From the IMG/VR virus record IMGVR_UViG_3300030332_001635, positions 1 through 35,311 of that record: a DNA stretch of 35,311 nt, one strand, 5' to 3'. The position numbers were made by a program, and so were the translations under genes. Under the pieces are notes generated by a model. It ran no database searches and was not told where the DNA came from. It worked only from the letters and a program-made list of their open reading frames with translations. Below, piece after piece: positions 3,240 to 12,409 of the stretch (positions are counted from its first letter, which is position 1; each line of letters begins with the position of its first letter). This DNA is from a virus (lineage: Duplodnaviria > Caudoviricetes).

Positions 3240-3938
3240 TTACGCTCTGAGTGATCCCATATCAATCTCGACATATGCTCCGCCGTGCTTGAACCCTTCT
3301 CGGATTCTATCAGCAACTCGAGCACCGTATCTAGCCTGGAAATCTTTTGCGTTTAGATTGGTGGTGATGACTGTCTTTCTGTAATTCGCATATCTCTCAT
3401 CAATTAACTCATCTAGCCGGTGGTTGAAATAACCATTCTTATCGAGATACTCGACACCAAGGTCATCAATAACAATGACCTTCTCTCGCATGATCTTCTC
3501 AAGGTGAGAATCGTATCCGCTTACCCTGCTAATCCTGGAAGATGTCCACCACCGTATACTGTTCGGGGGCGATTTAGACCTAGGCTTCGTTGACTCAGAC
3601 AGGAACATACCCGCGGCGGTACTCTTGCCACAGCCCTTAGGCCCGGCCAGGACCAGGCACCACGCCTCTCTCCCCGACGAAAGAAAAGAGATGACAGCCT
3701 CAGTCGCCTTTGTTTGCTTCATGTCTCTAAGCGTTTCTATGATGCGCTGTGGCATCCCCTGCCTTCTAAGGGAGGACTCTAGATCTTCCCCTGTCAGCTC
3801 TTTCTTTTCCTCGAGGATCTTCAGTGGGCTGGCTCTCTTCATCAGAGCTTTTATCCTGTCACTAAATTCAATCTCCGAACCCTGCGCGACTACCCCCGCA
3901 GAAATCATCACTCCCTGAAGTGTATCCATATCTTGCAT
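3240..3938 (-). CDS. DnaC/IstB-like AAA+ ATPase (helicase loader)
   Basis: Walker A GPKGCGKS, Walker B VIVIDDLGVE, sensor ITTNL and YGARVADRIRE motif. Confidence 0.9.
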   Translation of the reverse strand: MQDMDTLQGVMISAGVVAQGSEIEFSDRIKALMKRASPLKILEEKKELTGEDLESSLRRQGMPQRIIETLRDMKQTKATEAVISFLSSGREAWCLVLAGPKGCGKSTAAGMFLSESTKPRSKSPPNSIRWWTSSRISRVSGYDSHLEKIMREKVIVIDDLGVEYLDKNGYFNHRLDELIDERYANYRKTVITTNLNAKDFQARYGARVADRIREGFKHGGAYVEIDMGSLRA

Positions 3939-4317
3939 TACTGCTTTCCCCTTTTATGAAGTTATCCAAGTTCCCATCTTTCCCAAAGACATCCTTAACC
4001 GAGTGTCTCCCATTCTTCACCCACCAGTCGCTGCGAGCATTTTCAATGATAGCACGCTTTAGCTCGTCAGGTTTATACCCATCGACCAATCTTTTCTCTA
4101 TCAACTTCCAGTCAGGATGGTCGGGGTTAAGCGCTCTTCCTCTTCCTGGGTGGGTCTCTTGGTAATGGGAAACAATTGATTTCACATCTTCAAGGTGCTT
4201 CGACTTCGCCTTTGGCTTCTTGACCGGTGGATCGATCAAAGATTCTATCTCGTCTGCGGTTTTGCGCAGATATGCAGCAAGCCTTTTAATGGCCTTTGCG
4301 TTTACGTCAATTTTCAT
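3868..4317 (-). CDS. Putative replication initiator / replisome organiser (phage conserved C-terminal helical domain)
   Basis: IEKRLVDGYKPDELKRAI...WW...VFG...DNF motif. Immediately upstream of and overlapping the DnaC-like gene. ATG at 4317. Confidence 0.6.
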   Translation of the reverse strand: MKIDVNAKAIKRLAAYLRKTADEIESLIDPPVKKPKAKSKHLEDVKSIVSHYQETHPGRGRALNPDHPDWKLIEKRLVDGYKPDELKRAIIENARSDWWVKNGRHSVKDVFGKDGNLDNFIKGESSNARYGYTSGSDDFCGGSRAGFGD

Positions 4318-4337
4318 GGGATTACCTGAGGAAAGAG

Positions 4338-4407
4338 TGGGGGAGCAGACCGGTGTCAACCAAAGGAATGAAATGACACCGGAAAGTTCGCAGCTTCTGC
4401 CCCCCCA
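4338..4407 (-). ncRNA. Candidate antisense regulatory RNA (stem-bulge-stem-loop)
   Basis: 12-bp outer stem (4338-4349/4396-4407, G-U on the minus strand), 9-bp perfect inner stem (4350-4358/4374-4382), 13-nt bulge and 15-nt loop. Bulge and loop are complementary to the leader at 11457-11484. Confidence 0.7.
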
Positions 4408-6863: not shown

Positions 6864-7364
6864 TTATGCAATTGCCAGCGCACGTTTGCGCTTACTTTCT
6901 TTGGGCTTGTAAGACCCGTAGTTCCCACGAATTTGCTCCATAGAGATTTCTTTCCCCGAGAACTTTCGCCGTCCAGGAGGAGCAAGATACCAAGAAACTT
7001 TCTTGTGGTGGTATCTCAGACCTGCTCCCTTGAGGGCTTCTTTGTGTTTCTTTGTTTCGCCTGTAACCCATAGCCAGGTCCCACATATCTCAAACTCTAA
7101 GCCAAGCAAGTCGCTCAATGCGAACAATGCTGTTCCTATATGAGCTGTGATGTTGGCATCTGTTCCTTGGCCCAACTCCCCACTGAAGCCCTTAAGGGCC
7201 TCGTAGGCGTTATTAATCATGGATTGCATGTGCTGGCCGTTTGGCCATAGATCGGGGTGGTATTTCAAGCTTAGCTCTCTATACCTTGCCTTTATTTCCG
7301 CGGACGTTATGCTCCCGGAGAGGCCGAGGACTTCTGCGGCCTTCTCCTTACTCATTTTTGACAT
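6864..7364 (-). CDS. J-domain (DnaJ-like) protein with C-terminal alpha/beta domain
   Basis: AAEVLGL...EIKARYRELSLKYHPD...INNAYEAL is a canonical J-domain with HPD. C-terminal EICGTWLWVTGET...WY. Confidence 0.9.
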   Translation of the reverse strand: MSKMSKEKAAEVLGLSGSITSAEIKARYRELSLKYHPDLWPNGQHMQSMINNAYEALKGFSGELGQGTDANITAHIGTALFALSDLLGLEFEICGTWLWVTGETKKHKEALKGAGLRYHHKKVSWYLAPPGRRKFSGKEISMEQIRGNYGSYKPKESKRKRALAIA

Positions 7365-9715: not shown

Positions 9716-9914
9716 GCCTTCTCCTTTTGTTTTCCTTCAGCGCAAACTCAATGCCCCCTTCAATGATCCCGAGTCTCCCCCCCCAATGGAAGAAATCTTC
9801 TATCCCATCTAGGACTCTCCTGTATGCGAGCATCCTGTTTCTTAGGATCTCTATTTTTTCTGATCTCTCCATGTTATCCCATGCCTGGGAGTCTGGTGTT
9901 CCTTGCTCCTTCAT
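9696..9914 (-). CDS. Hypothetical protein
   Basis: GAGGAG RBS. ATGA start/stop overlap with the upstream gene at 9911-9914. Confidence 0.6.
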   Translation of the reverse strand: MKEQGTPDSQAWDNMERSEKIEILRNRMLAYRRVLDGIEDFFHWGGRLGIIEGGIEFALKENKRRRHDNSKE

Positions 9915-10216
9915 ACTCTCTCCTCCTCGATGAGCACGAAATTGAACCCATCTTGCTCTGCGTTTGATCCCCCTGCGATATGCTTGTAGGGCCACCCAAG
10001 TAGGTCTAAAAGCTTCTTTGCCGCCAAGAGATGGTTCTCTTCATAGCTTAGACCTAGGTCTTCTAGGACCCTCTCTGTCCTGGCAGCTGTTTTTGCTGTG
10101 ATATAGGTGGCTACTGTGTCGTCTTCCTCAACTACAGTCCTCTCTTTTGTCTCTATACTCTGCCGCATCTTCATATTTACTTCCTCTCTTGCAATTGCCT
10201 CTCTTAAAGTTACCAT
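9911..10216 (-). CDS. Hypothetical protein
   Basis: AGGAG RBS before ATG 10216 (MVTLREA...). First gene after the repeat region. Confidence 0.55.
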   Translation of the reverse strand: MVTLREAIAREEVNMKMRQSIETKERTVVEEDDTVATYITAKTAARTERVLEDLGLSYEENHLLAAKKLLDLLGWPYKHIAGGSNAEQDGFNFVLIEEERV

Positions 10217-10351
10217 CCTAATCTCTCCTAATCCTTTCCCCATCTCACTTTCATGAAGCTTAACATGGGAATGTTTTTGAATTTATGGATCTTGGGGTGT
10301 TTGGACTCTTAATAGTAAGTATGGAAAAGCGTCAGTGCAGAGGAGCGCCCC

Positions 10352-10536
10352 AAATCCCTCGCTCGCAACGCCTTCTCATCGAAGCTTATGTCTCGACCTC
10401 GGACCCACTGAATCTCACGTTGGCAATGCACGCGATGGAGGCTTGTGCCTTGGGTTCGGAACCACTGAAGCTCACGCTGGCAACAAACACAATGGAGGCT
10501 TGTGCCACGATAACGGAACCACAGACTACTTTGGCG
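10352..10536. repeat. 57-bp tandem dual-repeat array (~3.3 units) with two alternating variable segments
   Basis: R1 ATGGAGGCTTGTGCC at 10435 and 10492 (degenerate at 10378). R2 CGGAACCACTGAAGCTCACGCTGGCAA at 10457 (variants at 10400 and 10514, partial at 10352). The period is exactly 57. Confidence 0.85.
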
Positions 10537-10734
10537 GCCCCGAGCGGGCTTCCCGCGTCAACAGGGGCAGCCCTAAACAAACAGCAAGGACAAGCACCGA
10601 AGAAGTAACGCAGCGCGAAGCGTTTCCATCGACTTCAAGCGAGTCTTCGAGCGCCCGCGAGCTTGCGAGCGAAAAATTTTTTTTTTGGATTTTAGACGCC
10701 GGTTTGAAGGTACCGGCAAACCTGTTTGATTGGC

Positions 10735-11451
10735 TTATAGGTTTTTCCATTGAATCGATGAGCTCTTGTTGCTCTTTGCAGCAAGGGCATCAATCTTTGC
10801 GTACTCTTCAGCAAGCAATGAATCGAAGTCAGGCTCCGAATTATCGCCAATGACCCGGTCAACCAATAGGTCGTCCATGCCATCGATTTTTGCCGTGTAT
10901 TCTAGGCAATCGTCATCGGAACGCTCACCTTCGAGTTCTTTCTCCAGAAGGGCAACCACTGCTTCCATGTGCTCGACCGTTATTGAATCGAAGTCCAATC
11001 TGCGCGTTTCCTTGTCACGGGTAACGCCGGGCATTTCTTCCAGCTGACCACATATCCAACCGAAGCATCTGCTCATCTCACCACGGTTGATTCCGTGACC
11101 TAATGGCGAATCCTTCCGAAGGTGGAATTCACTCCAGTGGACTTTCAACTCCTTCTTGATTGCCCACTTGTTTGCTTCATGCTTCTGATGGACCGCTTCT
11201 GCTTTGGGCGCTCCGGTCTCTCTCCACAAATAGATTTTACAATCTAAGGCTTCCATTGCCTTCAGCTTTGATTGACGAGGGTCGATATGCTTTTGCTTAT
11301 ATTGCCTGGCTCGAAGCTGAGACTTGGCAACACATAGCCTCTCGGTGACAGGCAATTGCGTTTTCTGGTATGTCTTCTTTGAGTACGACATGTTTGCCGC
11401 GTCAATATCAACTTGCTTAATTAACTCTTCAATATTAAAATCAATGTTCAT
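10735..11451 (-). CDS. First early gene, hypothetical protein (238 aa; basic N-half, acidic C-half)
   Basis: AAAGGA RBS before ATG 11451, directly downstream of a sigma70 promoter. No family recognised. Confidence 0.75.
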   Translation of the reverse strand: MNIDFNIEELIKQVDIDAANMSYSKKTYQKTQLPVTERLCVAKSQLRARQYKQKHIDPRQSKLKAMEALDCKIYLWRETGAPKAEAVHQKHEANKWAIKKELKVHWSEFHLRKDSPLGHGINRGEMSRCFGWICGQLEEMPGVTRDKETRRLDFDSITVEHMEAVVALLEKELEGERSDDDCLEYTAKIDGMDDLLVDRVIGDNSEPDFDSLLAEEYAKIDALAAKSNKSSSIQWKNL

Positions 11452-11525: not shown

Positions 11526-12409
11526 GCTTTATCTTTAAAAACCTTAACTATTCTAACCACTTACCCTTGAATAGCTGCCTTCGACCGCTTCGGTCGTCTT
11601 GTGGCGGAGCCTTGGCCGACACGATAGCGGAGCGGTGGCTGTCTTCATGGGCCGAGCTTCGAGGGTCATTCTCTTTGATCTCGTGTTCACGCTTTTGCTC
11701 TCTTTTTGTTAAAAAGCACACGAAAATCATCTCTTTTGCAGTTAAAGGCGACTGTGTTTTGTGTGGATAGAAGATAGGAAAGCTCAATGATTACAAGGTA
11801 TCGCTCTTTTTCTCTTGTTTTATGGGAGTGTTTTACTGGGGATGTGAGGGCTCCGAAGCACGCTAAATAGCTTATATCATTGAGTATATTTCTACCCTTA
11901 TTCTCACTATGAGATTTCTCTCTTCTCTCCCTGTCTTCGTTTCTCCCTCTCTTCTCTCTACGGCGGACACTCCTTAAACATTCTATGTATTCTCTAATTA
12001 AGAGACGCTATCCTTGTACCCCCCCCTACCCCTCTTCAATTTAATCTTCTGCTAGCGGAACACCCTCCATGAATTTTTTTACGATTTCAACATCAACGCA
12101 GCGCATTAAAGTATATATCCTTAGGTCTTAATTAGTAAGAGACATAGATATAAACACCCCCCCCAGACTACATAGTTAGTAACCGCAGATTAGGGAAGCT
12201 GGTATATTCGCTTCATCCGTACTGTATTGTGTTGAATATCTGGTTAGTGGATATCACCATTGCCACAATGCTTATGTGGTGTGTCCCAGTTACTAGCTAT
12301 GCTTCGTTGGGTCATAAGGAGGCAATGGTTCTGTGTCCGCTTAAAGGGGGGTTAATTGCTAACCCCTAGCGTCTACTCCGTAACCGTCTACCTTTAACTT
12401 AGGGCATAG
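11526..12409. other. Large non-coding divergent control region (probable genome end / packaging-start area)
   Basis: No convincing ORF. Contains a pyrimidine tract (11914-11959), C-runs and hairpins. Lies between the divergent early and late arms, just upstream of the terminase genes. Confidence 0.5.

What the first reader, a model, noticed from the sequence alone, without database searches (positions are those of the whole stretch)
10352..10536. Dual-repeat array with alternating 7-nt and 8-9-nt variable segments (TIGR-like architecture without an obvious Tas protein)
Seen: [R2 partial] CGCCTTCTC [R1 variant] TCGACCT [R2] TGCACGCG [R1] TTGGGTT [R2] CAAACACA [R1] ACGATAA [R2 partial]. The period is 57 bp; repeats are well conserved while the short inserts differ strongly. 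The 3' end of R2 (TGGCA) can pair with the 3' end of R1 (TGCC). On the minus strand R1 exposes GCCUCCAU, an anti-SD-like sequence. Known: TIGR arrays of phages have two alternating repeats and two short (~9-nt) spacers, whereas CRISPR arrays have one repeat and long spacers. Inference: this may be a guide/sRNA array, perhaps serving the adjacent unknown 238-aa protein. Alternatives are origin iterons or a 19-aa protein repeat in ORF 10285..10608; 57 is a multiple of 3 and some changes are synonymous in that frame.
Basis: partly seen in the sequence, partly recalled or inferred. Interest (0 to 1): 0.7.

Follow-up and report, generated by a model that had tools for sequence, protein, structure and literature searches.

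The report
Phage split-guide array hitting rival terminase
A marine phage carries a short non-coding array of two alternating repeats with variable 7-9-letter inserts, and one neighbouring pair of inserts together matches 18 contiguous letters of the small terminase gene of a related phage, so the array likely encodes split guide RNAs aimed at competing phages, although no known guide-binding protein was found in the genome.

Summary
The array is real and longer than reported (10321-10537: four R1 and four R2 copies, period 57). It is non-coding and lies just downstream of an uncharacterised 238-aa gene in a marine podophage. It is not a TIGR array by definition: repeats are 15 and 27 nt and no Nop/Tas protein is detectable by HMM. 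It may work like one. On the minus strand the two inserts flanking one R2 hairpin, each read from a CCA/CCG triplet, match 18 of 18 contiguous bases of the terminase small-subunit gene of a related phage, in TIGR geometry (65 of 30,000 shuffles do as well). The phage's own site is the most diverged of 13 variants. Against: only one unit has a target; the inserts flanking R2 are partly complementary, as stem strands would be; an allele seen in two studies deletes one period and makes a chimeric unit; three relatives with the 238-aa gene lack the array. Best reading (0.45): a TIGR-like split-guide array against rival phages, with an unknown or borrowed effector. Main rival (0.3): a repeated-hairpin regulatory RNA.

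The parts
10321..10338 (-). Degenerate terminal R1 (18 nt; keeps the GCAC start and TCCAT end)
10339..10345 (-). 7-nt insert A0
10346..10368 (-). Degenerate R2 (23 nt); also one arm of the 17-bp inverted repeat
10369..10377 (-). 9-nt insert B1; carries the only insert SNP seen among strains (10372)
10378..10392 (-). R1 variant (11 of 15 identical to R1)
10393..10399 (-). 7-nt insert A1
10400..10426 (-). R2 copy 1 (27 nt; predicted CCA...UGG hairpin, ends in CCG)
10427..10434 (-). 8-nt insert B2
10435..10449 (-). R1 (15 nt; ends CCAU, contains CCUCC)
10450..10456 (-). 7-nt insert A2; with base 10449 it gives the 8-nt half of the tandem match
10457..10483 (-). R2 copy 2 (27 nt), the predicted loop between the two matching halves
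10484..10491 (-). 8-nt insert B3; with bases 10483 and 10492 it gives the 10-nt half of the tandem match (the 10 nt between CCA and UG)
10492..10506 (-). R1 (15 nt, identical to 10435-10449)
10507..10513 (-). 7-nt insert A3
10514..10537 (-). First R2 in transcript order (24 nt, shorter inner loop)
10663..10679 (-). Second arm of the inverted repeat bracketing the array; 17 contiguous pairs with G-U on the minus strand, 13 on the plus
   Evidence: 0 of 300 shuffles reach 17
10735..11451 (-). 238-aa protein of an unnamed small family: predicted coiled-coil hairpin (35-113) plus small helical domain; candidate, unproven effector

Best explanation
The array likely encodes split guide RNAs that work like TIGR guides and are likely aimed at competing related phages. 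Shown: the repeat anatomy, its non-coding position after the 238-aa gene, and one perfect 18-nt tandem match in a relative's terminase small-subunit gene. Inferred: the minus strand is transcribed with the early operon; a unit is insert B, the R2 hairpin as loop, then insert A, with R1 as the linker where units would be cut; each spacer starts after a box-C-like triplet (CCA before B, CCG before A); A would pair with one DNA strand and B with the adjacent stretch of the other; a dimeric protein would hold the RNA and block or mark the target. The effector is unidentified: the 238-aa coiled-coil protein is the positional candidate, a protein borrowed from a co-infecting element is the alternative. 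With no nuclease next to the array, blocking or repression is more likely than cutting.
For: Inserts are short, fixed-length and random-like between conserved blocks. Generalised null allowing any neighbour pair, 8 orientations and 0-2-nt gaps: 65 of 30,000 shuffles reach 18 nt or more; fixed 8+10 model 143 of 200,000. The site is a conserved motif in the terminase small-subunit ORF of a phage with 78% TerL identity. The phage's own copy of the site is the most diverged of 13 variants (9 mismatches; others 0-7). The geometry is the one I deduce from the 8-nt 3' overhangs in PMC12045711. Stem-loop tigRNAs can be about 54 nt and can carry a hairpin between the spacers (10.64898/2026.09.09.750476). 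In one metatranscriptome the only 2 contigs laid on 9900-10870 cover 10395-10696 (probably one fragment, could be DNA).
Against: One hit in one phage lineage (L054, L055 and L113 are one sequence); no other insert combination has a match with fewer than 2 mismatches, and under the fixed model none with fewer than 3, in 752,671 distinct 18-mers. An exact 15-nt core alone arises in 944 of 20,000 shuffles, and the 8+10 split was fixed after seeing the hit. No replicate from the variable segments of L049/L052 (5 rows with 1 mismatch, 3.7 expected, none exact, 432 patterns). B and A flanking R2 are partly complementary in one register (12 Watson-Crick + 1 G-U of 18; 39 of 20,000 pooled shuffles, 1,945 of 20,000 within-insert shuffles), whereas TIGR spacers show no obvious covariation. 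A deletion of one period in 2 of 8 runs laid, from two studies, joins B3 to A1 and destroys the matching unit. No Nop or IS110 domain by HMM in a genome estimated 93% complete. Three homologous loci of the 238-aa gene lack the array.
Confidence: 0.45

Rival explanations
1. A structured non-coding RNA (early-operon leader or decoy) made of tandem hairpin modules. The inserts are the two strands of a lower stem whose sequence is free but whose pairing is kept; the conserved parts are protein-binding loops or single-stranded anti-Shine-Dalgarno linkers. The terminase match is chance.
For: B/A complementarity across R2 with three different pair types in one column. R2 hairpin variants mostly keep pairing on the minus strand. 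A 17-bp G-U-containing helix brackets the array on the minus strand (0 of 300 shuffles). Relatives L049 and L052 hold, at the same place and strand, a structured element (z -3.2 and -4.2) with duplicated modules and the same CCA..TGG-WT-CCG motif (shuffle P 0.004 and 0.0085; motif chosen after comparing them).
Against: The complementarity is not significant under within-insert shuffling (1,945 of 20,000) and leans on the degenerate terminal unit; unit folding energies are no better than with shuffled inserts (fractions 0.13-0.89). The window's intergenic region folds weakly (z -1.3). It leaves the 18-nt match and the diverged own site unexplained.
Confidence: 0.3
2. DNA-level protein-binding sites (iteron-like origin or operator cluster): boxes at 28/29-bp spacing with free spacers of fixed length, plus an inverted copy and an A/T run next to it.
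For: Fixed spacer lengths; R1 and R2 cores are related; inverted copy at 10663-10679 and an A/T run at 10672-10694; no iteron-like repeats in the O-like initiator gene.
Against: The core matrix finds no comparable cluster elsewhere in the genome (next best score 14.8 versus 16.3-19.7); relatives lack the array at this position; the strand-specific G-U pairing points to a single strand.
Confidence: 0.1
3. A functionless product of local duplication and gene conversion in a fast-turnover intergenic region.
For: Copy number varies and R2 copies exchange variants; the array is confined to one lineage.
Against: Sharp block-wise contrast between identical repeats and unrelated inserts of constant length is hard to obtain without selection; 4 differences in 217 nt between strains against 45 in 717 nt of the adjacent gene.
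Confidence: 0.1
4. A 19-residue protein repeat in plus-strand ORF 10285-10608.
For: 57 is a multiple of 3; some differences between copies are synonymous in that frame; one R2 is 3 nt shorter (read by hand).
Against: 2 synonymous versus 13 non-synonymous codons between copies in that frame, and no frame above 5 versus 13; 4 of 5 strain differences non-synonymous (by hand); ORF absent from the protein collection and without Atlas hits; the 28/29-nt sub-period breaks frame.
Confidence: 0.03

Closest known systems
Dual-repeat TIGR arrays (Faure et al. 2025, PMC12045711)
   Same: Phage-borne; two alternating repeats with two short variable segments; repeats end in a CCA-like triplet; one unit matches an 18-bp site with the two halves on opposite strands.
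   Different: Unit 57 nt, not 36; repeats 15 and 27 nt, not 8-12; matching halves 8 and 10 nt, not 9+9 or 8+8; triplets differ between the repeats (CCA versus CCG); two intact units, not 5-15; no Nop-domain Tas found.
Stem-loop TIGR arrays (10.64898/2026.09.09.750476; PMC12045711)
   Same: Longer unit (about 54 nt in PateTasR); some clades fold the loop between the spacers into a hairpin, as R2 is predicted to.
   Different: Here the linker is a conserved repeat, not a variable palindromic stem of 5 bp or more; no Tas.
IS110/IS1111 bridge or seek RNAs (PMC12045711 discussion; details recalled)
   Same: Two short guides acting on opposite strands, RNA encoded beside a protein gene.
   Different: No Transposase_20 domain in the genome; tandem array rather than a single two-loop RNA.
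VIPR arrays (PMC13142463, search listing only)
   Same: Phage-encoded repeat RNA proposed for interference.
   Different: VIPR RNAs alternate GGY/NN motifs; nothing of the kind here.

Membership tests
Dual-repeat TIGR-Tas | Two distinct alternating repeats separated by short variable spacers | tested here: met
Dual-repeat TIGR-Tas | Repeats 8-12 nt, spacers about 9 nt, 36-nt unit | tested here: not met
   repeats 15 and 27 nt, inserts 7 and 8-9 nt, unit 57 nt against PMC12045711
Dual-repeat TIGR-Tas | Both repeats start with box D (UG) and end with box C (CCA), or co-varying variants | tested here: inconclusive
   minus strand: CCA/CGA + 10-11 nt + UG around B; CCG + 7 nt + GG/GA around A; the two repeats do not carry the same boxes
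Dual-repeat TIGR-Tas | Adjacent Tas protein with a Nop domain detectable by sequence | tested here: not met
   PF01798 0 matches at E<=10 in the genome, 93% complete, control rang in 5 of 14 genomes; no Nop hit for 14 family members
Dual-repeat TIGR-Tas | Nop-like fold in the adjacent protein | tested here: inconclusive
Dual-repeat TIGR-Tas | Spacers pair in tandem with opposite strands of a contiguous site | tested here: inconclusive
   met in silico for 1 of 2 intact B-R2-A units; no match for the others
Dual-repeat TIGR-Tas | Array processed into unit-length RNAs bound by the protein | not testable with these tools
   only contigs were available
Stem-loop TIGR | Variable palindromic stem (5 bp or more) flanking each spacer pair | tested here: not met
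   flanks are the conserved R1; the consensus fold shows no such outer stem
CRISPR (mini-)array | One repeat type of 25-36 nt with spacers of similar length | tested here: not met
   two repeat types, inserts 7-9 nt; no meaningful Rfam match
IS110 bridge-RNA element | IS110 transposase gene | tested here: not met
   PF02371 0 matches in the genome, control rang in 12 of 14; no IS110 family among 35 ORFs scanned
Iteron replication origin | Repeats bound by the initiator next to an unwinding element | not testable with these tools
   only indirect: no repeats in the O-like gene

The most novel reading that the evidence does not exclude
A Nop-independent split-guide RNA system: the 238-aa coiled-coil protein, of a family with no known sequence or clear fold relative, is the effector for 57-nt dual-spacer guides, and the array records a natural target in an essential packaging gene of a competing phage. 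The structured RNAs beside its homologues in L049 and L052 would be other forms of the same guide scaffold.
Probability: 0.2. Interest if true: 0.9.

Novelty: new variant of a known kind. Interest (0 to 1): 0.62.

Why it matters
The TIGR discovery paper states that genuine targets are hard to identify and that spacer origin is open (PMC12045711 discussion). A TIGR-like unit with a perfect tandem match in an essential gene of a related phage, and a diverged site in its own genome, would be a natural target pointing to phage-phage competition, and it names one exact RNA, one exact 18-bp site and one candidate protein to test. If the 238-aa protein is the effector, split-guide targeting would not be limited to Nop-domain proteins. 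If the rival holds, it is a new family of modular phage non-coding RNA, of lesser interest.

Full report
Setting. The window is a 35-kb virus record, 93% complete by CheckV, of a marine podophage (terminase, P22-like portal, capsid, Sak4, exonuclease, O-like initiator and DnaC-like loader). The array lies in the 490-nt gap between the first leftward gene (238 aa, 10735-11451) and the rest of the minus-strand early operon.

Observation. The repeats and inserts are as described. Mismatches between adjacent copies cluster in the inserts (15 of 18; 0 of 300 permutations). The array runs 10321-10537, with four R1 and four R2 copies, two B-R2-A units intact. R1 and the R2 core are related, giving a deeper 28/29-nt period. 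A 17-bp inverted repeat, fully paired with G-U only on the minus strand, brackets most of it (0 of 300 shuffles). It is not coding.

Variation. One near-identical phage (L001/L016) and 8 sequencing runs were compared; 7 runs cover part or all of the array. Inserts are unchanged except for position 10372 in the rows shown (one search left out 24 difference rows). Two runs from two studies carry a deletion of exactly one period, and R2 copies exchange variants. No diverged copy of the array was found.

The neighbouring protein. HMMER over 1.84 billion representatives gave 12 proteins at E<=0.001 including itself; none is annotated. The model is a long helical hairpin plus a small helical domain. 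That order recalls TasA (coiled coil plus C-terminal domain), but no sequence similarity to Nop or IS110 was found and the fold comparison is inconclusive. Three homologous loci with downstream DNA lack this array: L004 (contig ends after 515 nt), L049 and L052. L049 and L052 instead share a structured element with a module resembling R2 (motif chosen post hoc). Nine further related records searched with the family profile lack the gene; most are fragments.

The target lead. Searching neighbouring insert pairs against 96 fetched records gave one exact core. It sits in the terminase small-subunit ORF of a related phage (L054:518, L055:261, one sequence) and extends to 18 of 18 contiguous bases: the 8 nt after CCG followed by the reverse complement of the 10 nt between CCA and UG. 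This is the geometry I deduce for TIGR from the reported 8-nt 3' overhangs (PMC12045711). In 70 records of the phage and its relatives (752,671 distinct 18-mers; the 44 chance loci were dropped), shuffled inserts give an exact 15-nt core in 944 of 20,000 trials, an exact 18-mer under the fixed model in 143 of 200,000, and 18 or more contiguous bases under a null that allows any neighbour pair, 8 orientations and 0-2-nt gaps in 65 of 30,000. Keeping the B/A complementarity gives 30 of 400,000 per unit. Of 13 variants of the homologous site, the phage's own is the most distant (9 mismatches), as self-avoidance would predict, though 1 in 13 is weak.

Results against. No other unit has a target, and the variable segments of L049/L052 give chance-level hits. 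B and A across R2 are partly complementary (12 Watson-Crick and 1 G-U of 18), significant against pooled shuffles (39 of 20,000) but not within-insert shuffles (1,945 of 20,000), and unit folding is not better than shuffled. The deletion allele fuses B3 to A1. RNA evidence is two 151-nt contigs at depth 2 covering 10395-10696 in one metatranscriptome, probably one fragment, strand unknown.

Mechanism. Most likely (0.45), inferred: minus-strand transcript, cut in R1 into about 57-nt units, each presenting two short guides around the R2 hairpin to a dimeric protein that binds the matching site in a co-infecting relative and blocks it; nuclease-lacking Tas proteins act as repressors (10.64898/2026.09.09.750476 abstract). 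The effector is unknown. Rivals: repeated-hairpin regulatory RNA (0.3), DNA binding sites (0.1), functionless duplication (0.1), protein repeat (0.03).

Comparison and novelty. It works, if at all, like TIGR, but fails membership on unit size, repeat size and the Nop protein, so it is filed as a new variant, not a member. An earlier unchecked AI note reports a canonical 36-nt TIGR array without Tas in another phage (e1-10422772); it shows only that the orphan reading has been proposed elsewhere. Literature seen: PMC12045711, passages and sections 6, 7, 10; 10.64898/2026.09.09.750476, part 1 of 7, passages and section 7; PMC13142463, search listing only. Six searches showed no description of this array or of a Nop-free dual-spacer array; the library lacks most subscription papers. 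Supplements of the two TIGR papers were not read; their locus tables and array alignments could hold arrays with similar boxes or lengths. Points on IS110 guides, iterons and CsrA beyond those passages are recalled.

Noticed in passing
L049:650-900 and L052:3400-3870 (minus): Conserved, strongly folding non-coding element downstream of the 238-aa homologue, with blocks of 18-23 identical bases between two phages and internal module duplications in L052; no Rfam family; found in only these two records.
   Followed up: partly
window 10369-10378; L070:3698, L062:1556: Both strain alleles of insert B1 equal 10-nt stretches at the same site of the terminase large-subunit gene of relatives (synonymous variants); the neighbouring bases fit insert A1 only in the non-TIGR orientation with 2 mismatches. 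Could be chance.
   Followed up: partly
window 10413-10471: Clean one-period deletion in runs X6 and X10 (two studies); R2 copies also exchange single-base variants.
   Followed up: yes
window 11949-11959: L001 and runs X5, X6, X7 carry about 54 extra bases here between 11-bp direct repeats that the window lacks.
   Followed up: no
window 10735-11451: 45 differences in 717 nt from L001 at 95% amino-acid identity, against 6 in the 414 nt of array and intergenic DNA beside it: a real gene, probably with a recombined block.
   Followed up: partly
L010:1381-1477, L011:2314-2410: An unrelated two-copy 57-bp repeat about 700 nt upstream of the small terminase gene, with codon-like differences.
   Followed up: no
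L070:1908-2136, L076:5015-5445: Other short GC-rich repeat clusters in the control region upstream of the small terminase gene in relatives.
   Followed up: no
window 3868-4359 and 6864-7364: O-like initiator gene without iteron-like repeats; a DnaJ-domain gene in the early operon.
   Followed up: no
window 10640-10680 and L004:118-165: Three short related repeats next to the inverted-repeat arm are weakly shared with L004 (9 of 200 shuffles score as well).
   Followed up: partly
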